A DNA stretch of 64,000 bases, taken from Anaerolineae bacterium. GTDB lineage: Bacteria; Chloroflexota; Anaerolineae; B4-G1; SLSP01. The notes under the pieces are model-generated. The model worked only from the letters and a program-made list of their open reading frames with translations. It was not told the origin of the DNA and ran no database searches. The stretch lies in NCBI GenBank assembly GCA_034435555.1, contig DAOTXC010000120.1:3132-67131 (forward strand). Direction: 5' to 3'. The translations under genes and the position numbers were made by a program. This document shows, piece after piece, positions 17,812 to 56,479 of the stretch (positions are counted from its first letter, which is position 1; every line of letters starts with the position of its first letter).

Positions 17812-19002
<1,191 letters not shown>

Positions 19003-19188
19003 TCAGTAGATCGAAAAACGCTCCAAGGGGATCGCCAGATCCCCGCTTCAGGTCTGGATCTGATGATCCAGACCGAGCAAAATCACTTGGTGGCGAACTG
19101 GCGCGGACTCAAGCGCGCCCTCCTCCCGACACGCGAACCGCCCACCCGCTAGCCTCCCACCGGGTGGGCGGGGTGTTATACGACAGTC

Positions 19189-20085
19189 TTACGGAGCCGG
19201 CGGCGTGGGCAGTGGGGAGAGTGCCGGTTCCGGCGCTTCCGGGGCCACGGTCTCTTGCAACAGCGGCTCCAGCGGCGTGACCAGCTCCATCACCGAGGCC
19301 CACAGCGCCTCGAGCTCCGGCCCGACGCGGAACGAATTGGTCGCAATGAGCGCATCCAGGGCCTCGATCCGGGTCTGGAGCGCCTCCAACGTCTCGGCCT
19401 CCTCAGGCAATGCCGCGCGCGCCTGCTCCAGGTGCGCCACAGCGACCGGTAGCATCTCACGGGCCAGGCGCGGGTTATCCTCCAACAGCAATAGCCGCAC
19501 CTTCAGCAAATCCTGCGCCGTCTGCAAAAGCATCATCCGCCCGGAAAGCGTCCCGACCAGCTGGCGCGTATCCCGGGTCTCCGCCAGCCCGGCACTGAGC
19601 TCCACGTTGAGCGTCTCGAGCTCGCGGAGATTCGCCTCCTGAGCGGCGAGCAGCGTCTCCAGATCCGCGAGCGCCTGCGTCAGCTCGTCGAGTTGCGCCT
19701 CAGTATCTGCGATACGCGCCAGCGCCGCTGCGCTCTCCTCGCCGTAAGCGACCAGCTCCTCGCGGGAGGCGGCGAGCTCCGCCAGCTCCGTCAACTGCAC
19801 CTCCAGGCTGGTGATACGCGATTGCAGGGCCTCGACCTGCTCCTGCTCGCGGAGTTGCGTCTGCTCCAGACGCTGCTCCAAGACGGTGATGCGCGCGCGG
19901 TTATCCTGCACCGGTTGTACCAGGGTGCGGTAGCCCCAGGGGATGCCCCAGTAGAGCGCCAGTCCCAGGCCCGCGCCGATGATGAGCACAAACGTCAGGC
20001 GCAACAAGAACTTAAAAATCTTACCCAACGTCTCTCCAGCTACCTGCCATCCCGAACGCCGGGGCGTCGTCGTTTCCTGTGTCAT
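19189..20085 (-). CDS. Hypothetical membrane-anchored coiled-coil protein
   Basis: One N-terminal TM segment, then about 200 aa of heptad-rich Ala/Leu/Glu coiled coil, then a Pro-rich tail. No enzymatic motif. Confidence 0.5.
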   Translation of the reverse strand: MTQETTTPRRSGWQVAGETLGKIFKFLLRLTFVLIIGAGLGLALYWGIPWGYRTLVQPVQDNRARITVLEQRLEQTQLREQEQVEALQSRITSLEVQLTELAELAASREELVAYGEESAAALARIADTEAQLDELTQALADLETLLAAQEANLRELETLNVELSAGLAETRDTRQLVGTLSGRMMLLQTAQDLLKVRLLLLEDNPRLAREMLPVAVAHLEQARAALPEEAETLEALQTRIEALDALIATNSFRVGPELEALWASVMELVTPLEPLLQETVAPEAPEPALSPLPTPPAP

Positions 20086-20096
20086 CTGTTACCTCC

Positions 20097-21023
20097 TCAT
20101 TCACCTGAGGCCGGGGGCGTTTGCGGCCCCTCGCCAAAGATTTCTTGCAAAAGTTCCTGTAGCCGCTCGAAGAAGCGTTGCCCCCGCTCGGCCTGCGACT
20201 GGACGGTCTCCAATTCTGTGGAGAAGACGCCCAGCTGCGCATCAACGGCGTCAGCGTGTTCTTCCAGCGCCAGGGTCTGCTCGCGCAGGGCGGCGACCTC
20301 GGACTCGGCGGCCTGCATCCGCACGGTGAGGCCCTCCAGGGTATCGAGCCGCTGCCGCAGGCTGGTGGCATCGCTGCGCAAGATGGCGATCTGCCCTGCC
20401 AGCGCCTCGGATTGGCTGCGCAGATCCAGCACCGCCTCGCTGTGGTTGATGTCCAGTGAGCCGTTGATGCCGGAAAGCACCAGGAGCGTAAAGACCATGC
20501 CCAGCAGCGCCCCCGCCAACGAGGCCCACAGCCACGCCCAGAAGCTGCTGTTGTTGGTGCTAGCGACCACCGGTGTCGGGGATGTATCAGGAGCGACGGG
20601 CGGTTCAGGTTCGGGGGCCGGTTCAGACTCCAGTTCGGGCAAGGGATCGAAGGTAGGCGCAGCCGGGGGGTTGAGATGCAAGGGGTCTGGGAAGAGCGTC
20701 TCGAGTACAGGGGTAGGTTCCGGCTCATCTTCTGGCTCAGCAGCAGCGACCGGCTCCACTTGCAGGCGCGACGCCCAACGTTCATACAGCACCTCACCGA
20801 TACCGGGGACCTCTTTGAGTATCGCAGGGGACTCAAAGGGGCCTTGCATCTCGCGGTAGGCCAGGATGCGCTGGGCCAATGTCGGGCCAACGCCCTCCAA
20901 CGTCATCAGCTCCGCCTCAGTTGCCCGGTTCAGGTCTACCAGAGGCAACACCGTCGTTTCTTTTTGTGCTTCCAGATTCAAATCTGGCGCGACTTCAAAA
21001 TCCACCTGGTTTTCAGTCTCCAT
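20097..21023 (-). CDS. ComEA-like helix-hairpin-helix protein with central TM segment and C-terminal coiled coil
   Basis: N-terminal LNRATEAELMTLEGVGPTLAQRILAYRE (ComEA HhH motif). Acidic Pro-rich linker. TM FWAWLWASLAGALLGMVFTLLVL. Coiled coil. Confidence 0.6.
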   Translation of the reverse strand: METENQVDFEVAPDLNLEAQKETTVLPLVDLNRATEAELMTLEGVGPTLAQRILAYREMQGPFESPAILKEVPGIGEVLYERWASRLQVEPVAAAEPEDEPEPTPVLETLFPDPLHLNPPAAPTFDPLPELESEPAPEPEPPVAPDTSPTPVVASTNNSSFWAWLWASLAGALLGMVFTLLVLSGINGSLDINHSEAVLDLRSQSEALAGQIAILRSDATSLRQRLDTLEGLTVRMQAAESEVAALREQTLALEEHADAVDAQLGVFSTELETVQSQAERGQRFFERLQELLQEIFGEGPQTPPASGE

Positions 21024-21192
21024 CCTCCACCTCCTCTCTCAAATCAGCAAATCAAAAAATCAGCGAAATAGCAACACTCTTTATTATACGCGCCCCGCCG
21101 CCAGAGTGCAAATCACCGAGAGAAGAAAGAGGTGAAGCGGCTCATCCGCGCATCGGGTCAGCCGCTATATTGTTCAAACGTGCAAATCCCTA

Positions 21193-21483
21193 TCACGATC
21201 CCTTTTTCAAGAGTTGTTGCAACAAGTCACCCAGGTCAGATTCCATCACGATCCCCGGCGTGCCCTGGAAGTTGATGGTGAGGTTCTCGATGACGACGGA
21301 CGCCCCACCTTCGATACCCTCCAACGGAATTCGAGCGGTGATCGGTTGCGACGCGGGTGGTGGCGGCGCTTCAGGTTCGCGCACGGGAGGCGGCGTAACC
21401 TGCGGCGGCGCTTCCAGCGGTGGGTCGGATTGAGCAACGGGTTCGGCTTGCCTGCCTCCGGCCCGGAGGGGCGCTACCACCAC
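21193..21483 (-). CDS. Hypothetical Pro-rich protein (uncertain)
   Basis: Third consecutive minus-strand ORF upstream of the ComEA-like gene. Low complexity, no motif. Confidence 0.25.
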   Translation of the reverse strand: MVVAPLRAGGRQAEPVAQSDPPLEAPPQVTPPPVREPEAPPPPASQPITARIPLEGIEGGASVVIENLTINFQGTPGIVMESDLGDLLQQLLKKGS

Positions 21484-21658
21484 GATCTCGTTCCGCTAGG
21501 GATAGCGGCAAGTCACAAGGGATATTTCGCGTCTGGCGTGCAACTTTCACGCTGTAATTCCGTAATACACTTACAGAGAATGTGACTCATTCGCGCCACG
21601 TGCGCTACGTAAGTGATTTTTGGATTTGCTGATTTGCAGATTTTTACGGAGGTGTATG

Positions 21659-21880
21659 ATGATTGACACGAGTAAAATTCATTGGCTGTTGTGGCCGTTT
21701 GCCGCGCTGTGGAACCTGCTCTGCTGGATTCTGCAGGTGACCGGACGCCTGATCGCAGCAATTTTGGGGCTGGTCATCTTCATCGTCGGGATTGTGCTGA
21801 CGCTGACCGTGATTGGCGCGATTGTGGGCATCCCGCTGGCGATCTTCGGCCTGTTGCTGATGGTGCGGGCGATCTTCTAG
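21659..21880 (+). CDS. Small hydrophobic membrane protein (two TM), hypothetical
   Basis: 74 aa. GGAGG lies 6 nt before the ATG at 21659. The track ORF begins at a TTG inside the GATTT repeat element and is probably too long. Confidence 0.5.
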   Translation: MIDTSKIHWLLWPFAALWNLLCWILQVTGRLIAAILGLVIFIVGIVLTLTVIGAIVGIPLAIFGLLLMVRAIF

Positions 21881-21958
21881 ACCAAAGCACAGAAACCACA
21901 AAAAAGCGTGGGGCGCGTCCATTTTCAGGACGCGCCCCACGTTATCGCCAGGACAGCG

Positions 21959-24547
<2,589 letters not shown>

Positions 24548-24652
24548 CCCCCCTCAAAAATCAGTAAAATCGCCATGCTACTTTCATTCTAACCGATTCA
24601 CATTAGAAGCCCATTAACGCCATATAAGAAGCATCTTTGCGCCGGGCAGATG

Positions 24653-24680
24653 TTGACCAAACCGGGGAACAGGCTATAAT
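24653..24680 (+). promoter_or_regulatory. sigma70-like promoter candidate TTGACC-N16-TATAAT for the TPR gene
   Basis: Read directly. It implies use of the second ATG (24702) as start, given the SD AAAGGA at 24688-93. Confidence 0.3.
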
Positions 24681-24695
24681 CCGCTCAGAAAGGAT

Positions 24696-25235
24696 ATGAG
24701 CATGGAGATTATTCCGGCCAACAGCCCGACATTTGAAATCGTCCACATCAACGCCCAACGCTGCGATTGCGGAGGGCGTTATCAGATTCACGGCCAACAG
24801 TTGTTAGAAGTTGATGGGAATCCTATTGACCGCATCCGCACCAGCTGCGAGCGGTGCGAGGAAGAACGGGCCTTTTTCTTCGCTGTGCGGGGAGAGGCCG
24901 CTGACGACCACTTCGAGCGGACGGAAGCGAGCCTGCGCGCGGCACTGGATGCCATCCACGCGCAGGATTGGCCACTGGCAGAGGCGCAATTGCGCCAGGC
25001 GCTCGATCCGCAGCATGGCGAGCCGGCCTTCTGCTGGGCGCACTATCATCTGGGGATGGTGCTCCTGGCCCAGCAGCGGCCCGCCGAGGCGCTGGCCTTC
25101 CTCCGCCAGGCGGCGCTCCTCAGCCCCAACGAGGCGGAATTTTACCGGGGACTGGCAAAGGCATTGACCCTCACCGGAGAGCCGGAGCTCGCCGCCGATG
25201 TGCAAGCCACTTACAAAGCTTTACAGACCTTATAA
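24696..25235 (+). CDS. TPR-repeat protein
   Basis: C-terminal TPR-like helices (WAHYHLGMVLLAQQRPAEALAFLRQAALLSPNEAEFYRGLAKAL). The start may be 24702. Confidence 0.5.
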   Translation: MSMEIIPANSPTFEIVHINAQRCDCGGRYQIHGQQLLEVDGNPIDRIRTSCERCEEERAFFFAVRGEAADDHFERTEASLRAALDAIHAQDWPLAEAQLRQALDPQHGEPAFCWAHYHLGMVLLAQQRPAEALAFLRQAALLSPNEAEFYRGLAKALTLTGEPELAADVQATYKALQTL

Positions 25236-25252
25236 CGCAAAAGGAGTTATCC

Positions 25253-26413
25253 ATGACCGGCAAACTCACCCTCACGCCCGTGACCACACCCGCAGAGCGC
25301 GAAGAATTTATCCGCTTTCAGTGGGAGATCTATCGTAACGACCCCGACTGGGTTCCGCCGCTCCTCTCCGAGCGACGGGAGTTTATGGACCCGGCGCGCC
25401 ATCCCTTCCACGAACACGCCGAGGTACAGTCCTACATCGCGCGGCGCGATGGCCGCCCGGTGGGCCGCATCAGCGCCATCATCAACCACCGCCACAACGA
25501 GCACTGGAACGAGCGCGTGGGCTTCTTCGGCCTCTACGAGGTCGTCGAGGGCGAGCACGAGGCCTCCAAGGCGCTCCTGGCCGCCGCCGAGGACTACGTC
25601 CGCGACGCCGGGATGACGGCGATCCGCGGGCCAATGAACTTCTCGACCAACGAGGAGATCGGCCTGCTGGTGGAGGGATGGAACGGCCCCCCCGTGGTGA
25701 TGATGACCTACAACCCGCGCTATTACGTGGAGTACATCGAGGCCGCCGGTTACGCTAAAGCCATGGATGTGTTCGCCTACCTCGCCGACCTGCGCAACCT
25801 GCGTGAGGATGGCACGGGCATGAATCCCAGGCTGCTGCGCGTGGCCCAGAAGGTGCAGGAACGGTACAACTTCACCGTGCGCCCCATCAACATGCGCAAC
25901 TTCGATGAGGAAAAACAGCGTGTCAAGCAGGTCTACAACGCCGCCTGGGCCAAAAACTGGGGCTTCGTGCCGCTCACCGTACATGAAATGGACCACCTGG
26001 GCGAGGCCATCAAGACGATGATTGACCCCAAGACCGTCTTCTTCGCCGAGAAAGATGGTGAGCCGATTGCCTTTATGATCCCCTTCCTGGATCTGTGCCA
26101 ACCGCTGCTCAAAGCCTATCCGCGGCCCGGCGTTCCCGAATGGTGGACGCTGCTCAAGTTGGGCTATTGGTGGAAGGTGCGCAAGAATGTGACCCGGCTG
26201 CGCGCCGCCGTCGGCGGGATCATCGAGGAGTATCGCGGGCGCGGCGTGGATGCGGTGCTTTTTATGGAGACGCTCAAGGCCGGCATCCGTGGCGGGTACG
26301 AGGAATTCGAGATCTCCTGGGTTTTGGAAAACAACATCCCAATGCGCCAAACGGCGGAGAACTTCGGCGGGGAGCAGTACCGCACCTACCGCATCTACGA
26401 AAAGAGCTTGTAA
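25253..26413 (+). CDS. GNAT-fold acyltransferase-like protein (about 386 aa, hypothetical)
   Basis: AAGGAG 6 nt before the ATG at 25253. FQWEIYRNDPDWVPP N-terminal motif seen in a widespread family of GNAT/FemAB-fold proteins. Function unknown. Confidence 0.55.
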   Translation: MTGKLTLTPVTTPAEREEFIRFQWEIYRNDPDWVPPLLSERREFMDPARHPFHEHAEVQSYIARRDGRPVGRISAIINHRHNEHWNERVGFFGLYEVVEGEHEASKALLAAAEDYVRDAGMTAIRGPMNFSTNEEIGLLVEGWNGPPVVMMTYNPRYYVEYIEAAGYAKAMDVFAYLADLRNLREDGTGMNPRLLRVAQKVQERYNFTVRPINMRNFDEEKQRVKQVYNAAWAKNWGFVPLTVHEMDHLGEAIKTMIDPKTVFFAEKDGEPIAFMIPFLDLCQPLLKAYPRPGVPEWWTLLKLGYWWKVRKNVTRLRAAVGGIIEEYRGRGVDAVLFMETLKAGIRGGYEEFEISWVLENNIPMRQTAENFGGEQYRTYRIYEKSL

Positions 26414-26416
26414 TCC

Positions 26417-27715
26417 TTGACCCGAAAGGACGGCAACGCAGAGCGTAACGCCACCCTCAAGCTGCTGGCCCAGAACCCGGATTTTCTGCGCCTGTGGCTA
26501 GGGCAATTGCTCTCACAGATTGGCGATCGGGCCTTTCTGATCGCTACGCTCCAGCTGGTGAACCAGATGAGCGATTCGGTGACGGCGCTCCTGATTCCTG
26601 CGCTGGCGTTCGCCCTGCCGCAGGTGCTCTTCGGGCTGGTGGGCGGGGTGATGGCCGACCGCTGGAACCGCAAGCACACGATGATAATCTCCGAAGTTAC
26701 CCGTGGGTTGATCGTGCTGAGCCTGCTAACCATCCAGTATCACCGCCAACTCTGGATTCTCTACCTGGGCGTGGCGGCATTGGCCTTCGTGGGAGTCTTC
26801 TTCTACCCGGCGCGTAACGCGCTGCTCCCCAACATCGTCTCTGTAGGCGATCTCTGGAGCGCCAATACGCTCATTCAAGGCAGCGCCATGATCGCGATGG
26901 TCTTCGGGCCGGCGCTGGCGGGGATCGCGGTGGGCCTTTGGGGGGTGGGCTTCGCCTTCATCTTCGACGCCGTCACGTTCTTCCTCTCGGCGACCGCAAT
27001 TGCTTCGTTACAATCAAGCGGCCAGGTCGCACTTGTGGAGGGCGCCCAGCCGCGCTCCAACCTGCGCCAGGAGATGCACGATGGCCTCAAGTACATCATG
27101 GGCCACCAACTGCTCAAGCGCGTACTCGCGCTCATTGCCATGGCGACGTTGGGGATCGCCTCGATTGTGCTGCTGTCGGTGCGGCATCTGGATGAGGCGC
27201 TGGGCGTGGGCGCGACCGGCTACGGCTTCACGCTGACGGTGCTCGGCATCGGCGCGCTGCTCGGCGGACTGAGCGCCAGCCGGCTCAATCGCGTGCTGAA
27301 GGTGCGCCCGCTGGTCAGCGTCATGTTGCTCATCGCGGGCGTGGCGATCATCGGCTTTGCTTACGCGCCGACCTACGCCATCGTGCTGGTCTGCGTCGCG
27401 CTGTTGGGGATGAGCGTTGTAACCGCGCGCGGCGCGCTGGATACGATCACACAGGTGCTCGCGCCTGACGAGATGCGCGGGCGCGTCCAGGCCGCGGTGA
27501 ATCTGATCATCAGCGCAGCCACCGCCCTCGCGGAGGGGATGTCCGCGCTGTTGGGCGATCTCTTGGGGCTGCGGGTTGTCTTCACCGGCGCGGGGATTAT
27601 CACCTTACTGGCCGGGTTCGCGGGTTGGCGGATTTTGCGCGCTTTCAGCGCCGCTCCCCAACACGGACGCGCTGAAGAAAGCACGGCCATCGCTTCCCCA
27701 AAAAGCAGGGCGTGA
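26417..27715 (+). CDS. MFS transporter
   Basis: 12 predicted TM segments. MFS motif-A-like GxxxDRWNRK. TTG start 4 nt after the preceding stop. Confidence 0.75.
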   Translation: MTRKDGNAERNATLKLLAQNPDFLRLWLGQLLSQIGDRAFLIATLQLVNQMSDSVTALLIPALAFALPQVLFGLVGGVMADRWNRKHTMIISEVTRGLIVLSLLTIQYHRQLWILYLGVAALAFVGVFFYPARNALLPNIVSVGDLWSANTLIQGSAMIAMVFGPALAGIAVGLWGVGFAFIFDAVTFFLSATAIASLQSSGQVALVEGAQPRSNLRQEMHDGLKYIMGHQLLKRVLALIAMATLGIASIVLLSVRHLDEALGVGATGYGFTLTVLGIGALLGGLSASRLNRVLKVRPLVSVMLLIAGVAIIGFAYAPTYAIVLVCVALLGMSVVTARGALDTITQVLAPDEMRGRVQAAVNLIISAATALAEGMSALLGDLLGLRVVFTGAGIITLLAGFAGWRILRAFSAAPQHGRAEESTAIASPKSRA

Positions 27716-27753
27716 CCTCGCGGTCACGCCCTGAAAACTGGCTCGGTGAGCGG

Positions 27754-28566
27754 TTAGTACTTGCGCACGATGGCGCGGTACGCGCCCGGCTGCCGCGCCA
27801 GAATGATCTGGCTGTCCTCGCGCACCTGCCGCACCTCGTCCATATCCAGCCGCACCATGACGTAGCCTTCCTCCGGCTCCTCGAGGGCAGCGAGCACCTC
27901 GCCACGGGGGCTGAGCACCGCGCTCTGCCCGGCGAAGGTGTACGAGGGTTCCTCGCCGATGCGGTTGGCCGCCGCGACAAAGACGCCGTTTTCGTAGGCG
28001 CGGGAGACCAGCAGCGTGCGCCACATATCGGACTCCTGGGCCTGCCAGGCCGCCGGCACAACCAGCACCTCCGCGCCCTCAAGGACCAGATTGCGCGCAA
28101 CCTCCGGGAAGGCGAGGTCCCATCCCAGCACCACACCGATGACGCCCACTTCGGTCTCGATGGGAGCGATTTTGTAGCCGGGGCGGAAGACCAACCGCTC
28201 CTCCGCCGGGAGGTGAACCTTGCGGTAGGTGCCCACGGGCGCACCATCCGGCCCAATCAGGACCGCGCTGTTGTACAACACCGTCTCAACCTTCTCCTTC
28301 TCCGCCATCCCGATGAGGACGTAGATACCGAATTCGCTGGCGTGTTGCCCCAGGATGTTGGTCACAGCGCCGGGGACCCGCTGCGCAAATTGCGAGAAGC
28401 GCGAGCCGCCCTCGCAACCGGTCACGGAGAGTTCGGGGAAGACGATCAGATCCACGGCTTGCTGCGTGGCGATGTTGGCGATCATGTCGGCCATTTTGCC
28501 GACATTGGCCTCCAGTTTGCCCAACTGGGGTTCCATCTGGACAACGGCAATGTTCAATTGACGCAT
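27754..28566 (-). CDS. Carbon-nitrogen hydrolase (nitrilase superfamily)
   Basis: Catalytic triad context: FPEL (Glu), RK (Lys), LGWDLAFPE (the catalytic Cys position is replaced, checked by alignment only). 270 aa. Confidence 0.8.
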   Translation of the reverse strand: MRQLNIAVVQMEPQLGKLEANVGKMADMIANIATQQAVDLIVFPELSVTGCEGGSRFSQFAQRVPGAVTNILGQHASEFGIYVLIGMAEKEKVETVLYNSAVLIGPDGAPVGTYRKVHLPAEERLVFRPGYKIAPIETEVGVIGVVLGWDLAFPEVARNLVLEGAEVLVVPAAWQAQESDMWRTLLVSRAYENGVFVAAANRIGEEPSYTFAGQSAVLSPRGEVLAALEEPEEGYVMVRLDMDEVRQVREDSQIILARQPGAYRAIVRKY

Positions 28567-28576
28567 AGTTTTATCT

Positions 28577-28611
28577 CCTTGAAAATCTGAAAATCAGCAA
28601 ATCTAAAAATC
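28577..28611 (-). promoter_or_regulatory. Leader element: four tandem 8-nt GATTTNNN repeats abutting the SD of the CN-hydrolase gene
   Basis: mRNA sense: GATTTTTA GATTTGCT GATTTTCA GATTTTCA AGGAG ATAAAACT AUG. A near-identical element lies at 21614-21646. Confidence 0.5.
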
Positions 28612-28663
28612 GCCAGAATGTGCTTCTATTTAGGTTGGCTACGCTCTAAAACAGGCTACAGAT

Positions 28664-29608
28664 TTAAGAGCTTTTGGGGCGGGTCAAGTAGCGCAAGATG
28701 CCCTGCAGATCCGCCGGGAGCTGTGATTCGACAGGCTGTATGGTCGCCGTCTCTGGATGGGGAAATTCCAACCGGCTGAGATGCAAAAAGAGACGGTAGT
28801 CGAGCAACGGCTGAAAGCGGGAGCCGTACCAGCGGTCGCCGACGACGGGATAGCCATACCAGGCCAGGTGCGCCCGGATTTGGTGGCGACGCGATCCCTC
28901 CGGCGTGACCTCCAGCAGGGAGTAAGTGCGCGTCTGATCCCTGTAGCGTCGCAGGACGCGGTACGCGGTGCGGGCAGGGCGTCCCTCCCGCGCGATGATA
29001 GTGCGCCCGCGTTCGTGCGAGGCGCTGCCCAGTGGAGCCTCGATGACCTCCGTGCCGCTGGCCTCCCCTTCGACCAACACTGAGAAGCGCCGGATCACCC
29101 GCTGGCGTTTGACCTCCCGTTGCAGCGTGCGGTAGGCGGCCTTGGTGCGCGCCACGAGCACCAGCCCGGAGCTCTCCGCATCAAGCTGTTGCACGATGCC
29201 CGCCCGTTCCGCCCCGCCGACATGCGCGAGATCAGGAGCATATTCGTACAACTGCTGGGCCAACGTGGGCACGTCACGGTGTCGCCGCGAGGGATAGATC
29301 GGCAGGCAGGCGGGCTTATCCACCACCAACACGACCTCGTCAGCGTAGACGATAGCCAGGTCGGGAATCAGCGATGGCGGTTGCACCCCTACGACGTTTT
29401 CCGACGCGGCCTCTGGCACGGCGACATCGAGCAGATCGCCTATCTCCACGTACTGCCCGGCCTTGCGCGCCGGTTGTCCATTGACCAGAACCGCGCCCTC
29501 TTGGATCAACTGCCGGATCTCCAGGCGGCCCAGGTCCGGCCACGCCTCGAGCAACGCCTGATCAAGACGCTGCCCCTGCGTCACCTGTACGTGAGAACGA
29601 TCAGACAT
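28664..29608 (-). CDS. RluA-family 23S rRNA pseudouridine synthase (RluD-like, with S4 domain)
   Basis: N-terminal S4 (RLDQALLE ... EIRQLIQEGAVLVNGQP). Catalytic HRLDxxTSG-like motif (YVDKPACLPI ... RTKAAY). Confidence 0.85.
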   Translation of the reverse strand: MSDRSHVQVTQGQRLDQALLEAWPDLGRLEIRQLIQEGAVLVNGQPARKAGQYVEIGDLLDVAVPEAASENVVGVQPPSLIPDLAIVYADEVVLVVDKPACLPIYPSRRHRDVPTLAQQLYEYAPDLAHVGGAERAGIVQQLDAESSGLVLVARTKAAYRTLQREVKRQRVIRRFSVLVEGEASGTEVIEAPLGSASHERGRTIIAREGRPARTAYRVLRRYRDQTRTYSLLEVTPEGSRRHQIRAHLAWYGYPVVGDRWYGSRFQPLLDYRLFLHLSRLEFPHPETATIQPVESQLPADLQGILRYLTRPKSS

Positions 29609-32764: not shown

Positions 32765-33184
32765 ATGAAAGTATTGGCCTTCAATGCTGATCTTTGCACG
32801 GGCGCGCGCGAGTGCGAGGCCGCCTGCGCTCAGACATGGTTCAAGGTGCAAGACGCCGCCAAATCCAGCATCCGCATCAGCACGAAAGATAACGGCTTCA
32901 GCGCCGCGTTCTGCATTCAGTGCGGCAAGTGCATCGAGGTTTGCCCCACCGAGGCGCTTTACTACAACAAGCAGGGTGTCGTCCTGCTGAAGAAAGACCT
33001 GTGCGTGGGCTGTATGTCGTGTGTGGGCTTCTGCCCCTACGACGTGATGTACTTCGCGCCGGAAGAGGCCATCGCCTTCAAGTGCGTCGCCTGCGGGCAG
33101 TGCGTCAAAGCGTGCCCAAATGACGCGCTGAAGATCGTGGAGGTCGAAGAGGCTTCTACAGATGTGTGGAATTTGCGATTTTAG
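32765..33184 (+). CDS. Poly-ferredoxin (three or four 4Fe-4S cluster motifs), probable electron partner of AOR
   Basis: CIQCGKCIEVCP. CVGCMSCVGFCP. CVACGQCVKACP cluster motifs. 139 aa. Confidence 0.8.
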   Translation: MKVLAFNADLCTGARECEAACAQTWFKVQDAAKSSIRISTKDNGFSAAFCIQCGKCIEVCPTEALYYNKQGVVLLKKDLCVGCMSCVGFCPYDVMYFAPEEAIAFKCVACGQCVKACPNDALKIVEVEEASTDVWNLRF

Positions 33185-33236
33185 ATTTGGGAGATTTCAC
33201 CGCAAAGACGCAAAGATTTCAGAGAGGGCTTGACGA

Positions 33237-35956: not shown

Positions 35957-35985
35957 GCATCTTAATGTTTTTAGCCACAAATTTG

Positions 35986-36037
35986 CACGAATTTGACGAA
36001 TTTTTTGAAAATATGTGAGAATTCGTGGAATTCGTGG
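35986..36037. promoter_or_regulatory. Operator-like 2x2 repeat site: two direct ACGAATTT units and two direct AATTCGTGG units in inverted orientation
   Basis: CACGAATTTGACGAATTTTTTG ... GAGAATTCGTGGAATTCGTGG. Lies between the AOR stop and the MoaD-like gene. Confidence 0.4.
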
Positions 36038-37498: not shown

Positions 37499-37612
37499 AC
37501 TCTAGCACACAAATCGTAAAAAGACAATTTATAAAAGAAGTTGAAAAATTAAATCGCGCATTTCCCATTTGGATATTTAGAAGTACAATTGTGTAGTTAC
37601 TTCTAATCTGTG

Positions 37613-37630
37613 AAATCCGTGTCAATCCGT
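37613..37630 (+). promoter_or_regulatory. Direct repeat AATCCGTG x2 (10-bp period) 20 nt upstream of the pyrG SD
   Basis: GAAATCCGTGTCAATCCGTGAGCC read directly. Function unknown. Confidence 0.25.
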
Positions 37631-37653: not shown

Positions 37654-39270
<1,617 letters not shown>

Positions 39271-54998: not shown

Positions 54999-56156
54999 AT
55001 GGCTGAGAAACTATTAACGTTAGGTGTGATTGGTACATCAAGCAAGGAAAATGAGCATCGGCTGCCCATCCATCCAGAGCATCTACCCAGAATCGAACCC
55101 CATCTAAGCCCGCAGATTTTCGTGGAAACGGGCTATGGAAACCGTTTCGGCGCAGACGAGGACTATTTGCGCGCCCACACCGGCGGCATCCGCTCGCGCG
55201 AGGCGCTCTTCGAGCAGTGCGATATCATCCTGCTGCCCAAACCTACCCCAGAGGACTTTCCCTACTTCCGCGAGGGGCAAATCCTGTGGGGCTGGCCGCA
55301 CTGCGTGCAGGGCAAGGCCATCACCCAACTGGGCATTGACAAGCGGCTCACGATGATCGCCTGGGAAGCGATGTACGTCTGGCGGAGCGAGCAGACCCCC
55401 GGAATGCACACCTTCTACAAGAACAACGAGCTGGCGGGCTACGGCAGCACCCTCCACGCCCTCCAGTTGCAGGGCATCACCGGGCATTACGGCCCCCACA
55501 AGCGCGCCGCTGTGATCAGCTTCGGCTCCACCGGACGCGGGGCGGTCTATGCCCTGCGCGGAATGGGCTACACCGACATCACCATCTACACGCAGCGCCC
55601 CTCGCACGCGGTACACAACCAGATCCCGGCGTTGGGCTATCGCCGCTACAAGCGCGCTACCCCTAATGGCGCGGATGTGGTCGCCGGGCGGCGCGGCACA
55701 AGAACGATGGCCGAGGAGCTGGGCAAATACGACATCATCGTCAACTGTGTGCTGCAGGATACCGACCGCCCGCTGATGTTCATCCGCAACGCCGAACTCG
55801 ACCACCTGCGGCCCGGCACGCTTATCATTGACGTGAGCTGCGACCACGGCATGGGCTTCGAGTTCGCTCGCCCCACCTCCTTCGAGTCGCCCACCTTCGA
55901 GGTCGGCGACCGTGTGTGCTACTACGCGGTTGATCACTCGCCCTCCTACCTGTGGAACGCTGCCACCGACGTCATCAGCGAGTCGGTGCTGCCCTACCTG
56001 CCCACCGTGATGGGCGGCCCTGACGCCTGGGCGCAAAACCGCACCATCCGTAAAGCCATCGAAATCCGCGAGGGCGTGACCCAAAACCCCAAGATTCTGC
56101 ACTTCCAGAAGCGCGCGGAGACCTACCCCCATCCCATCCGCAACGACGCCAAGTGA
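54999..56156 (+). CDS. Alanine-dehydrogenase/PNT-family NAD(P) dehydrogenase (N5-carboxyethyl-ornithine synthase / saccharopine dehydrogenase-like)
   Basis: N-terminal LGVIGTSSKENEHRLPIHPEH AlaDH/PNT N-domain pattern. Rossmann segment VISFGSTGRG. 385 aa. Substrate not assignable. Confidence 0.65.
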   Translation: MAEKLLTLGVIGTSSKENEHRLPIHPEHLPRIEPHLSPQIFVETGYGNRFGADEDYLRAHTGGIRSREALFEQCDIILLPKPTPEDFPYFREGQILWGWPHCVQGKAITQLGIDKRLTMIAWEAMYVWRSEQTPGMHTFYKNNELAGYGSTLHALQLQGITGHYGPHKRAAVISFGSTGRGAVYALRGMGYTDITIYTQRPSHAVHNQIPALGYRRYKRATPNGADVVAGRRGTRTMAEELGKYDIIVNCVLQDTDRPLMFIRNAELDHLRPGTLIIDVSCDHGMGFEFARPTSFESPTFEVGDRVCYYAVDHSPSYLWNAATDVISESVLPYLPTVMGGPDAWAQNRTIRKAIEIREGVTQNPKILHFQKRAETYPHPIRNDAK

Positions 56157-56479
56157 GATCGCTACACATCATAGGACTTACGCCATCACGCGGCCTCAAC
56201 ATCTTCAACCGCAGAGCGCGCAAAGGACGCAGAGTTTTTTGTTAAAAACCCGCCGACGTTGCTCAAAAAGACGGTTTTTGTTGTGCCAAGATGTTGAGAA
56301 AGTACTTTATAAAAATTCTCTTTGCGCTCTCTGCGTACTCTGCGGTTAGGTTCTCGATACTTGCGTAAGTCCTGATCAGAAAAGCCAGGGTTGGAACAGA
56401 TTCCTGCTTGTTCATGGAACAAATATGCCGGTTCCTACGTCTTTAAGATGTAGGCAAAACAGGAAAACAGAAGGAGGAT

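What the first reader, a model, noticed from the sequence alone, without database searches (positions are those of the whole stretch)
28577..28611. Family of tandem 8-nt GATTTNNN repeats fused to the Shine-Dalgarno of unrelated genes
Immediately upstream of the CN-hydrolase start the mRNA reads GAUUUUUA GAUUUGCU GAUUUUCA GAUUUUCA-AGGAG-N8-AUG.
- Near-identical arrays precede four other genes with no common function, always in the sense orientation of the downstream gene and always ending at the SD: 21614-21646, 21038-21066, 18986-19010, 33170-33228.
- These AT-rich islands stand out in a 63% GC genome.
- An 8-nt period is not a DNA helical repeat. That argues for an RNA-level element (S1/Hfq/CsrA-type protein site, translational enhancer or sRNA target) or a tandemly binding DNA regulator.
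- I know of no described element with this architecture.
Basis: seen in the sequence. Interest (0 to 1): 0.75.

Follow-up and report, generated by a model that had tools for sequence, protein, structure and literature searches.

The report
Octamer repeat arrays abutting ribosome-binding sites
Several unrelated genes in this Anaerolineae (Chloroflexota) genome carry two to four tandem copies of an 8-base GATTT+3 unit directly in front of their ribosome-binding site; the pattern is real and non-random, it resembles uncharacterised repeat sets already reported in other bacteria, and its function is unproven.

Summary
GATTY-N3-GATTY occurs 9 times in 64 kb (0.5 expected). All 9 matches lie in four leaders, all in the sense of the downstream gene, and in three of the four the array ends 3-4 nt before a strong SD (13 nt at tgt). 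I found a fifth, 2-unit site before clpB. The 33170-33228 site is only a loose relative.

- **Organism:** an Anaerolineae bacterium.
- **Constraint:** the GATTT core is almost invariant while the 3-nt spacer varies freely. Orthologous CN-hydrolase leaders in one related clade carry period-7 RACT+N3 arrays at the same spot, with the same core/spacer asymmetry.
- **Not deeply conserved:** six other sampled lineages (73-84% protein identity) have no array at this leader. Units differ between genomes whose CN-hydrolases are 97-98% identical. Relatives also carry arrays in 3' spacers, in antisense orientation, and as long pure satellites.
- **Negative results:** no Rfam match, no shared RNA fold, no predicted gain in RBS accessibility, no copy-number polymorphism.

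Best reading (about 0.4): a tandemly amplified U-rich pre-SD box in the 5'UTR that serves as a platform for OB-fold single-strand RNA binders (S1 or Csp). The main rival is a slippage-born satellite of little function.

It is not unprecedented. TAACTGA heptamers in Beggiatoaceae (MacGregor 2015), Nostoc heptamers and Vibrio ctx heptads are close analogues.

The parts
28580..28611 (-). Four 8-nt units GATTTTTA GATTTGCT GATTTTCA GATTTTCA in the leader of the CN-hydrolase gene (27754..28566 -)
   Evidence: Pfam CN_hydrolase
28564..28579 (-). SD AGGAG (28579->28575), 8-nt spacer, ATG (28566->28564) of the CN-hydrolase
21615..21646 (+). Four units GATTTTTG GATTTGCT GATTTGCA GATTTTTA, followed by C-GGAGG (21648-21652) and ATG 21656 of a conserved 74-aa membrane protein
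21038..21069 (-). One degenerate unit plus three units (ATTTCGCT GATTTTTT GATTTGCT GATTTGAG) running into SD GAGGAGGTGGAGG (21036->21024) and ATG 21023 of an HHH/ComEA-like gene
21083..21112 (-). Sigma-70-like promoter TTTGCA-18-TATAAT (10/12). Its -10 hexamer ends 13 nt 5' of the array region defined above (21069->21038), about 21 nt before the first perfect GATTT unit, so it places the array in the 5'UTR (prediction only)
18979..19002 (-). Weaker array GATTTGCT GATTCACA GCTTTTCC, then AA-GAGGAG (18977->18972) and ATG 18960 of tgt
24556..24571 (-). Two units GATTTTACT GATTTTT directly 5' of SD GAGGGGGG (24555->24548) and ATG 24541 of clpB.
33170..33228 (+). Loose relative: GATTT x4 at irregular spacing, interrupted by ACGCAAAG x2. 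It overlaps the end of a Fer4 gene and precedes GAGAGGG and the TTG start 33237 of a DUF4258 gene

Best explanation
The arrays are RNA-level cis elements in short 5'UTRs. I propose that a U-rich box which normally sits just 5' of the SD in this bacterial group was tandemly duplicated by replication slippage into 2-4 units. Each unit has a conserved core (GAUUU here, RACU in a sister clade) and 3 free nucleotides, giving a 7-8-nt period. I infer that each unit is one binding site for an OB-fold single-strand RNA binder, either the RNA-binding domains of ribosomal protein S1 or a cold-shock protein (Csp). The array would then recruit or hold 30S subunits next to the SD, or let a Csp-type protein tune initiation.

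**Shown:** non-randomness, sense orientation, SD abutment, core/spacer asymmetry, recurrence in other Anaerolineae, lineage restriction.

**Inferred:** that the arrays are transcribed, the identity of the binding partner, and the direction of any effect on expression.
For: 1. **Strand and position in the window.** 9/9 two-unit matches lie in four leaders, all sense. Together with the 2-unit clpB site, four of the five arrays end 2-4 nt before the SD and tgt ends 13 nt before it. Both arrays of the 633-nt divergent spacer sit at its two extreme ends.
2. **Transcribed position.** A sigma-70-like promoter lies just upstream of one array.
3. **Constraint on a core.** Within-array departures per position are [0,0,0,0,1,5,5,5] over 13 units here (core versus spacer, Fisher p=6e-7). 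In 47 units of clade-A arrays, which were found by protein homology and not by motif, they are [1,1,0,3,12,14,24] (chi-square p=1e-11).
4. **Recurrence.** The same GATTT+N3-to-SD junction appears in other Anaerolineae MAGs: L023, L059, L072 (twice), L086 and L099. Among arrays with an SD plus start codon within 45 nt, 13 are sense and 5 antisense outside the window.
5. **Retention.** All sampled members of clade A keep an array at the orthologous leader.
6. **Ancestral box.** Most array-less orthologues (L122, L123, L202/L203) still have a single U-rich box (ATTTTT/TATTTTT) directly 5' of the SD; it is weak in L204 and absent in L205/L206. The SD-proximal unit of the arrays looks like that box, which suggests amplification of a pre-existing enhancer.
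7. **Matching footprint.**
   - The 7-8-nt period fits an OB-fold footprint.
   - Clade-A units GACTTTG/GACTTTT match the B. subtilis CspB consensus GTCTTTG/T at 6 of 7 positions (PMC1904285 abstract).
   - Anaerolineae encode Csp, for example the CSD gene in L210.
8. **Precedents.** A/U-rich pre-SD enhancers, S1 dependence and unstructured standby tails are established in E. coli (PMC2176067, PMC5934652, bioRxiv 10.1101/808485).
9. **Single-stranded.** There is no common fold. Folding z-scores range from -2.25 to +1.37 and there is no Rfam hit.
Against: - There is no transcript or expression data.
- Only one of the five sites has a convincing upstream promoter.
- Modelled RBS-opening energy is no better with the native arrays than with shuffled or genome-composition replacements, and is worse for clpB and the ComEA-like gene. 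A simple 'keeps the SD open' role is therefore not supported.
- Arrays are absent from the same leaders in six other lineages and from about 54 leaders in L205, L210 and L211.
- Units turn over between genomes whose CN-hydrolases are 97-98% identical.
- In relatives the same kind of array sits in 3'-3' convergent spacers, abuts the SD in antisense orientation (L103, L032), and forms pure arrays of up to 30 copies (L032).
- The S1 and Csp resemblance is a resemblance only. It was not tested.
Confidence: 0.4

Rival explanations
1. The arrays are slippage-born micro/minisatellites typical of certain lineages, like cyanobacterial STRR or the Chloroflexus (GATAGRA)n satellites. They have little or no function and survive mainly where they do no harm, such as AT-rich spacers just outside coding sequence.
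For: - **Patchy distribution:** 0 arrays in about 54 leaders of L205, L210 and L211, against 5 of about 46 in the window and 3 of 17 in L207.
- **Fast, concerted turnover:** GACTAAA, AACTTTC and GACTTTT occur in genomes with 97-98% identical CN-hydrolases.
- **Other locations:** arrays lie in 3'-3' spacers, in antisense orientation, and as pure runs of up to 30 copies in other MAGs.
- **Cross-phylum spread:** the same GATTTGCT unit forms arrays in Bacteroidota, Spirochaetota and others.
- **Other families in the window:** other short tandem or inverted repeat families fill other spacers.
- **Literature:** scattered heptamer satellites are known in Chloroflexus aurantiacus (PMC6749651).
Against: - A neutral satellite should decay evenly across the unit, but variation is confined to 3 of 7-8 positions.
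- All five sites in the window are sense, and four of them end 2-4 nt before the SD. My rough estimate for random placement in their spacers is about 1e-8.
- Degenerate arrays are retained in all sampled clade-A members.
- No copy-number polymorphism was seen. The window and L121 differ at 11 of 6813 nt with an identical array, and L126, L208 and L209 are identical.
Confidence: 0.3
2. A dedicated sequence-specific oligomeric RNA-binding regulator, working on the logic of TRAP or HutP, reads one GAYU core per subunit. Because the array abuts the SD, binding would occlude or expose the SD and define a post-transcriptional regulon.
For: - The architecture of a conserved short core plus non-conserved spacers at fixed period is what TRAP sites (11 (G/U)AG repeats, PMC3064811) and HutP sites (XAG-rich regions, PMC2425495) look like.
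- Orientation is sense and the array abuts the SD.
- Each lineage has its own core next to a shared upstream hairpin element: GATTT in the window tgt leader and GACTA in the L207 LiaF-like leader.
Against: - No candidate protein has been identified.
- The target genes have no common function.
- Unit sequences differ between very close relatives, which is hard to reconcile with a specific protein interface beyond the 4-nt core.
- The array-bearing gene set is not conserved across lineages.
Confidence: 0.15
3. It is a DNA-level element: tandem sites for a transcription factor or nucleoid protein (as ToxR/H-NS act on the GATTTTT heptads of Vibrio ctxAB), or part of the promoter itself.
For: - T-rich tandem heptads nearly identical in sequence (TTTTGAT = GATTTTT) act at the DNA level in the ctxAB promoter (abstract seen).
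- The arrays are AT-rich islands in a 61% GC genome.
- In Nostoc, deleting heptamer repeats altered reporter output and the response to NtcA and LexA.
Against: - Strict sense orientation and direct fusion to the SD are not needed for a DNA site.
- At the ComEA-like gene the array lies downstream of the predicted -10 box, whereas the ctx heptads lie upstream of the core promoter (position from my own knowledge, not checked here).
- No acceptable -35/-10 pair lies within the arrays. The only hit, 21633-21660, would start transcription inside the ORF.
- The 8-bp period puts successive sites on different faces of the helix.
Confidence: 0.1
4. The array is a target for antisense pairing, either with a trans sRNA carrying (AAAUC)n or with a cis inverted copy, forming a regulatory hairpin next to the SD.
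For: - In other genomes a sense array next to the SD is preceded by its inverted copy (L057 pgk leader).
- The window's ThiS-like leader has inverted tandem arrays with 17-nt arms, 88% complementary.
- A variable leader repeat targeted by an sRNA is known for H. pylori RepG (PMC8295292 abstract).
Against: No antisense (AAATC-N3)n copy exists anywhere in the 64-kb window outside the leaders themselves. The GATTT leaders show no shared hairpin.
Confidence: 0.05

Closest known systems
TAACTGA direct-repeat sets of marine Beggiatoaceae (MacGregor 2015, Front Microbiol 6:1397; PMC4679880)
   Same: - 2-6 contiguous short direct repeats.
- Mostly 'forward' toward the start codon and ending a few nt upstream of it.
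- Dispersed in front of functionally unrelated genes.
- Patchy, lineage-specific distribution, with long arrays in some Bacteroidetes and Cyanobacteria.
- No experimental function. S1, Csp and CsrA were proposed as binders.
   Different: - The unit is TAACTGA, repeated near-exactly (36 of the 169 sets are split by related heptamers), at period 7. Here the unit is a GATTT core plus 3 variable nt at period 8.
- In BOGUAY the repeats overlap and replace the RBS, and only about 10% of the repeat-containing intergenic regions have an SD. Here every array is fused to a strong canonical SD.
- The phyla differ: Gammaproteobacteria versus Chloroflexota.
A/U-rich translational enhancers and ribosome standby tails (S1-dependent) in E. 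coli (PMC2176067; PMC5934652; bioRxiv 10.1101/808485)
   Same: A single-stranded A/U-rich tract directly 5' of the SD. The proposed action is through 30S/S1 binding. Most array-less orthologues keep a single U-rich box at the same place.
   Different: Known enhancers are not tandem arrays with a conserved core and fixed period.
TRAP and HutP binding sites in Bacillus subtilis (PMC3064811; PMC2425495)
   Same: A short conserved RNA core repeated at a fixed small period with non-conserved spacers, placed in a leader.
   Different: The core (GAYU versus NAG) and the period differ. No TRAP or HutP homologue was sought or found. Those systems control one pathway, whereas the targets here are unrelated.
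TTTTGAT heptad repeats of the Vibrio cholerae ctxAB promoter
   Same: A nearly identical T-rich unit (GATTTTT) in tandem in front of a gene. The heptads matter for expression and the preprint studies how their copy number relates to promoter activity (abstract).
   Different: They act on DNA by recruiting transcriptional regulators, at period 7 and at a single locus. Their position upstream of the core promoter and the identity of the binders (ToxR, H-NS) are from my own knowledge. Here the array sits between the predicted -10 box and the SD, at several loci.
Cyanobacterial STRR/heptamer repeats and prokaryotic satellites (Nostoc (TTTTGAA)3, bioRxiv 10.1101/2022.06.06.494920; Chloroflexus (GATAGRA)n, PMC6749651)
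   Same: Short-period tandem repeats scattered through intergenic regions of particular, often filamentous, lineages. In Nostoc they are often within 100 nt of start codons or promoters.
   Different: Different units. For those elements no strict SD abutment or core/spacer asymmetry has been reported in the text I read.

Membership tests
Start-codon-proximal short direct-repeat sets (TAACTGA type, MacGregor 2015) | Two or more contiguous direct repeats of a short unit, dispersed at many loci | tested here: met
   Four leaders carry 2-4 period-8 units each, and a fifth 2-unit site lies before clpB.
Start-codon-proximal short direct-repeat sets (TAACTGA type, MacGregor 2015) | Forward orientation toward the start codon, ending a few nt upstream of the translation start region | tested here: met
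   All five sites are sense. They end 2-13 nt before the SD and 11-31 nt before the ATG.
Start-codon-proximal short direct-repeat sets (TAACTGA type, MacGregor 2015) | Downstream genes have no common function | tested here: met
   The downstream genes are CN_hydrolase, an HHH/ComEA-like protein, TGT, ClpB and a small membrane protein.
Start-codon-proximal short direct-repeat sets (TAACTGA type, MacGregor 2015) | The unit is the heptamer TAACTGA | tested here: not met
   The unit is GATTT+N3 at period 8. The sister clade has RACT+N3 at period 7.
Start-codon-proximal short direct-repeat sets (TAACTGA type, MacGregor 2015) | The repeats take the place of the SD | tested here: not met
   Every array is followed by a strong SD: AGGAG, GGAGG, GAGGAGG, GAGGAG or GAGGGGGG.
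A/U-rich pre-SD translational enhancer / S1 standby site | An A/U-rich tract directly 5' of the SD without stable structure | tested here: met
   The arrays are 23-31% GC. There is no shared fold, with z-scores from -2.25 to +1.37.
A/U-rich pre-SD translational enhancer / S1 standby site | Lies within the transcript | tested here: inconclusive
   Only the ComEA-like site has a good sigma-70-like promoter upstream. No transcript data are available.
A/U-rich pre-SD translational enhancer / S1 standby site | Raises translation in an S1-dependent manner | not testable with these tools
   This needs reporters or in vitro translation. The thermodynamic proxy (RBS opening energy) showed no advantage of native arrays.
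TRAP/HutP-type oligomeric RNA-binding-protein site | A conserved short core repeated with non-conserved spacers | tested here: met
   Core versus spacer departures are 1/65 versus 15/39 in the window and 5/188 versus 50/141 in clade A.
TRAP/HutP-type oligomeric RNA-binding-protein site | A cognate oligomeric binding protein is encoded in the genome | not tested
   The trans-factor need not lie in the 64-kb window. No Csp motif was found in the window.
ctxAB-type DNA heptad repeats (ToxR/H-NS sites) | The tandem repeats lie upstream of the core promoter | tested here: not met
   At 21038-21069 the array is downstream of the predicted -10 box. At all sites it touches the SD.
Phase-variable simple-sequence contingency locus | Copy number differs between near-identical strains | tested here: not met
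   The window and L121 are 99.8% identical with the same array. L126, L208 and L209 have identical leaders. This rests on only two comparisons.
Any Rfam family | A match to a curated covariance model | tested here: not met
   There are 0 matches at gathering score over the whole window. Nothing relevant appears at E<=1 over 18800-29000.

The most novel reading that the evidence does not exclude
In some Anaerolineae lineages, (GAYU-N3-4)n arrays fused to the SD are the operators of a so far unknown post-transcriptional network. A multimeric or cooperatively binding single-strand RNA protein, Csp-like or new, would read one core per subunit and set the translation of dozens of unrelated genes. 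Sites would be created and lost rapidly by slippage. This would be the same solution as the Beggiatoaceae TAACTGA sets, reached independently.
Probability: 0.15. Interest if true: 0.8.

Novelty: new variant of a known kind. Interest (0 to 1): 0.5.

Why it matters
Short tandem repeats placed right at translation starts have now been seen independently in Beggiatoaceae, cyanobacteria, Bacteroidetes and, here, Anaerolineae. Nobody knows what they do.

This case adds two things:
- **A clear signature of constraint.** The core is invariant, the spacer is free and the period is fixed. This signature was also recovered without motif bias, from orthologous leaders.
- **A natural comparative series.** Closely related genomes differ in having 4-6 units, different units, or none at the same leader.

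That series makes the question testable with reporters carrying 0 to 6 units, RNA pull-downs, and phyletic profiling of array-rich against array-free genomes. If the arrays prove functional, they would be a simple, evolvable way to tune translation and a compact part for UTR engineering. If they do not, they are a clean example of how satellites settle next to ribosome-binding sites.

Tried and rejected
- **Rfam.** The gathering-score scan of the whole window and the E<=1 scan of 18.8-29 kb found nothing relevant.
- **Common RNA structure.** The five leaders folded with z-scores from -2.25 to +1.37 and share no fold. Rejected.
- **'The array keeps the RBS open'.** Native arrays were compared with shuffled, random-composition and deleted versions. 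There was no consistent advantage. Not supported.
- **Promoter inside the array.** The only sigma-70-like hit overlapping an array (21633-21660) would start transcription inside the ORF. Rejected.
- **Deep conservation at orthologous leaders.** Rejected. Arrays are present in the window lineage and clade A only, and absent in L122, L123, L136-L138, L202-L206, L210 and L211.
- **Conservation of the array-bearing gene set.** The clpB and small-protein leaders of L205, L207, L210 and L211 have no such arrays.
- **Hypermutable copy number.** No variation was seen in two comparisons.
- **Strict sense rule across Anaerolineae.** Only a bias was found, 13 sense against 5 antisense. Clear antisense cases abut the SD (L103 hisF, L032).
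- **Csp gene in the window.** None.
- **Source genome in the genome-contig scan.** No genome-wide census was therefore possible.
- **Literature search for an Anaerolineae-specific description.** None was found.
Full report
**1. What is in the sequence**

On the minus strand, 28611->28564 reads GATTTTTA GATTTGCT GATTTTCA GATTTTCA AGGAG ATAAAACT ATG. The ATG opens a 270-aa CN_hydrolase (Pfam E=4.5e-59). The same kind of array occurs at four further sites:

| Site | Strand | Sequence | Downstream gene |
|---|---|---|---|
| 21615-21646 | + | GATTTTTG GATTTGCT GATTTGCA GATTTTTA C GGAGG TGT ATG | 74-aa membrane protein, 66% identical to its syntenic orthologue |
| 21069->21038 | - | ATTTCGCT GATTTTTT GATTTGCT GATTTGAG A GAGGAGGTGGAGG ATG | HHH/ComEA-like protein |
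| 19002->18979 | - | GATTTGCT GATTCACA GCTTTTCC AA GAGGAG | tgt |

It is interrupted by ACGCAAAG x2 and overlaps the end of a ferredoxin gene. I treat it as a loose relative.

**2. Is it more than chance?**

- GATTYNNNGATTY has 9 matches against 0.50 expected. The best of 100 dinucleotide shuffles gave 2. All 9 lie in the four leaders and all are in the sense of the downstream gene.
- The three-unit pattern has 5 matches against 0.00 expected.
- TRF calls three of the arrays independently of any motif.
- The arrays are 23-31% GC in a window of about 61% GC.
- In the 633-nt divergent spacer 21024-21655, the two arrays sit at the two extreme ends, each against its own SD.
- My rough estimate for random placement and orientation inside the four spacers is of the order of 1e-8. 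This is my own arithmetic from the spacer lengths, not a tool result.

**3. Whose genome**

The CN-hydrolase is 100% identical to a protein on a 67.6-kb ENA contig. Its relatives are named 'Anaerolineae bacterium' by their sources. A JGI contig (L121) is 99.8% identical over 6.8 kb.

**4. Related sequences**

*Other genomes carrying the motif.*
Many are Anaerolineae/Chloroflexota MAGs of 57-66% GC. Many others are Bacteroidota, especially Saprospiraceae.
- In several Anaerolineae the same junction recurs: L086 GATTTTGA GATTTGCT GATTTTCAGAGGAGG..ATG, L099 ..GATTTGCT GATTTTCCAGGAGGG..ATG, and also L023, L059 and L072 twice.
- Other arrays in that set are long and pure, for example (GATTTGCY)30 in L032, lie far from any start, or abut an SD in the antisense orientation (L103 hisF, L032).
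- Counting arrays with an SD plus start within 45 nt gives 13 sense against 5 antisense outside the window. That is a bias, not a rule.

*Orthologous leaders.*
- A metagenome scan with the CN-hydrolase gave 20 orthologues of 68-82% identity.
- Thirteen of them form a tight clade, clade A, with 87-98% identity among themselves.
- Nearly all clade-A members carry a tandem array at exactly the same place. It has period 7 and different units:
  - GACTAAC/GACTAAA in L124 and L127.
  - AACTTTC/AACTTTG in L126, L128 and L133.
  - GACTTTC/GACTTTG in L129, L131, L132 and L139.
- Each of these arrays ends in ..ACTATTTT-GGAGG.
- The other lineages have no array and often only a 28-54-nt spacer. These are L122, L123 and L136-L138, the nearest relatives L202-L206 at 82-84%, and L210 and L211 at 77-79%.
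- About 54 leaders in L205, L210 and L211 show none.
- L207 (clade A, 20.8 kb) has same-family arrays at three leaders. It also has one in the 3'-3' spacer after the CN-hydrolase terminator.

*Summary of the comparison.* The trait is lineage-restricted and turns over quickly. L124 and L126 have 97% identical proteins but GACTAAA versus AACTTTC units. Within clade A the array is nevertheless retained in all sampled members.

**5. Signature of constraint**

I counted, for each position of the unit, how often a unit departs from the majority base of its own array.
- Window: [0,0,0,0,1,5,5,5] over 13 units.
- Clade A: [1,1,0,3,12,14,24] over 47 units. These arrays were ascertained by protein homology only.
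- Core versus spacer gives Fisher p=6e-7 and p=5e-16 respectively.

The units are related by descent, and badly mutated end units are not counted, so the p-values are indicative only. A neutrally decaying satellite should still not keep 4-5 positions fixed while 3 vary freely. The shared core across lineages is GAYU or RAYU.

**6. Structure, accessibility, polymorphism**

- There is no Rfam match.
- The five leaders share no fold, with z-scores from -2.25 to +1.37.
- The energy needed to open the SD and start region is not lower with the native array than with shuffled or genome-composition replacements. The fraction of controls at or below the native value ranges from 0.18 to 0.99. The arrays are therefore not explained simply as structure-breakers.
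- Copy number did not differ in the two near-identical comparisons available.

**7. Transcribed or not**

Only the ComEA-like site has a convincing sigma-70-like promoter, TTTGCA-18-TATAAT at 21112->21083 (10/12 matches). It lies just 5' of the array and would put the array in a roughly 50-nt 5'UTR. For the CN-hydrolase, the array lies in the spacer after rluD within a same-strand gene string (dksA-like, lspA, rluD), so it may be intercistronic.

**8. Origin**

Most array-less orthologues still have one U-rich box right before the SD:
- L122: catattttttcaAGGAGG
- L123: cttatttttcaaagaAGGAG
- L202: ctatttttggtAAGGAG

The SD-proximal unit of the arrays (GATTTTCA-AGGAG, GACTATTTT-GGAGG) looks like that box. 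I infer that the arrays arose by tandem duplication of a pre-existing U-rich pre-SD element.

**9. Mechanism**

- *Best reading (confidence about 0.4):* an RNA-level platform in the 5'UTR for OB-fold single-strand binders.
  - The 7-8-nt period equals the footprint of such a domain.
  - B. subtilis CspB prefers GTCTTTG/T (PMC1904285), which clade-A units GACTTTG/GACTTTT match at 6 of 7 positions.
  - A/U-rich pre-SD enhancers acting through S1, and unstructured standby tails, are established in E. coli (PMC2176067, PMC5934652, bioRxiv 10.1101/808485).
  - These are resemblances, not tests.
- *Main rival (0.3):* a lineage-specific slippage satellite with little function. The patchy distribution, the turnover, the non-leader copies and the many other short tandem or inverted repeat families in these genomes all support it.
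- *Other rivals:*
  - A dedicated TRAP/HutP-like regulator (0.15).
  - A DNA-level site as in the Vibrio ctx heptads (0.1).
  - An antisense pairing target (0.05).

**10. Comparison with what is known**

- The closest precedent is MacGregor 2015 (PMC4679880).
  - It describes 169 sets of 2-6 TAACTGA heptamers in Cand. Maribeggiatoa.
  - They are mostly forward-oriented, within a few nt of start codons of unrelated ORFs, and patchily distributed.
  - S1, Csp and CsrA were proposed as binders, and nothing was tested.
- The differences here are an 8-nt unit with a degenerate spacer, a different phylum, and fusion to a canonical SD. In BOGUAY the repeats usually replace the SD, and only about 10% of the repeat-containing intergenic regions have one.
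- Nostoc (TTTTGAA)3 repeats near start codons have some reporter evidence.
- Chloroflexus aurantiacus has (GATAGRA)n satellites.
- I found no description for Anaerolineae.

**11. Verdict**

The feature is real and non-random. It is a new variant (octamer, SD-fused, Chloroflexota) of an already noticed but uncharacterised kind of element. Interest is moderate at 0.5. It is not categorically new. However, the constraint signature and the natural series of array-bearing and array-less orthologous leaders make an open question testable.

Noticed in passing
window 19020-19075 (- strand, tgt leader); L207 about 17940-18060: Two GATC-containing hairpins (GGTCTGGATC-N4-GATCCAGACC and GGGGATCTGGCGATCCCC) are followed by TTGGAGCGTTTTT..TCTACTGA. 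A near-identical element of about 75 nt precedes a LiaF-like gene in a genome whose CN-hydrolase is only about 80% identical to the window's. Each time it is followed by that lineage's own array (GATTT.. here, GACTA.. there). It looks like a dispersed REP/MITE-like or regulatory element.
   Followed up: partly
window 35976-36037: The spacer between the aldehyde:ferredoxin oxidoreductase stop and a ThiS-like ORF (ATG 36050, no SD) is built of CACGAATTTG x3 followed by the inverted GAATTCGTG x2 (17-nt arms, 88% complementary). Clade-A genomes (L207, L209) have inverted tandem arrays of different units in the same spacer.
   Followed up: partly
window 56207-56347: A 42-nt imperfect inverted repeat made of CGCAGAG/CGCAAAG 9-mers flanks a 57-nt centre downstream of the 385-aa ORF ending at 56156. 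Similar GACGCAGAG-type units occur at window 33201-33216 and in the L134 and L135 leaders.
   Followed up: partly
window 24502-24600 (- strand): The clpB leader folds more stably than shuffles (z=-2.25, 3 of 200 shuffles as good), with a hairpin covering the AUG and part of the SD. This could be a thermosensor-like element for this heat-shock gene.
   Followed up: no
window 37585-37626: AATCCGTG occurs twice at a 10-nt period in the leader of the 538-aa ORF starting at 37654. It is another short tandem repeat next to an SD but with an unrelated unit.
   Followed up: no
window 21070-21614: A 633-nt divergent spacer lies between the ComEA-like gene and the small membrane-protein gene. It contains GC3-rich ORFs (for example 21217-21585 +) that may be an unannotated gene. 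If that gene is real, the 21615 array would be intercistronic.
   Followed up: no
L022, L071, L109 (Saprospiraceae MAGs): The sequence following (GATTTGCT)n arrays at three loci is the same: cgaccgaaggctaacgaagtgagtcccgattgaaaatcggggg. This suggests a dispersed element that carries or attracts the array in Bacteroidota.
   Followed up: no
L210 16997-17206: A cold-shock-domain gene sits directly downstream of clpB in an array-free Anaerolineae relative. It shows that Csp is encoded in the group.
   Followed up: no
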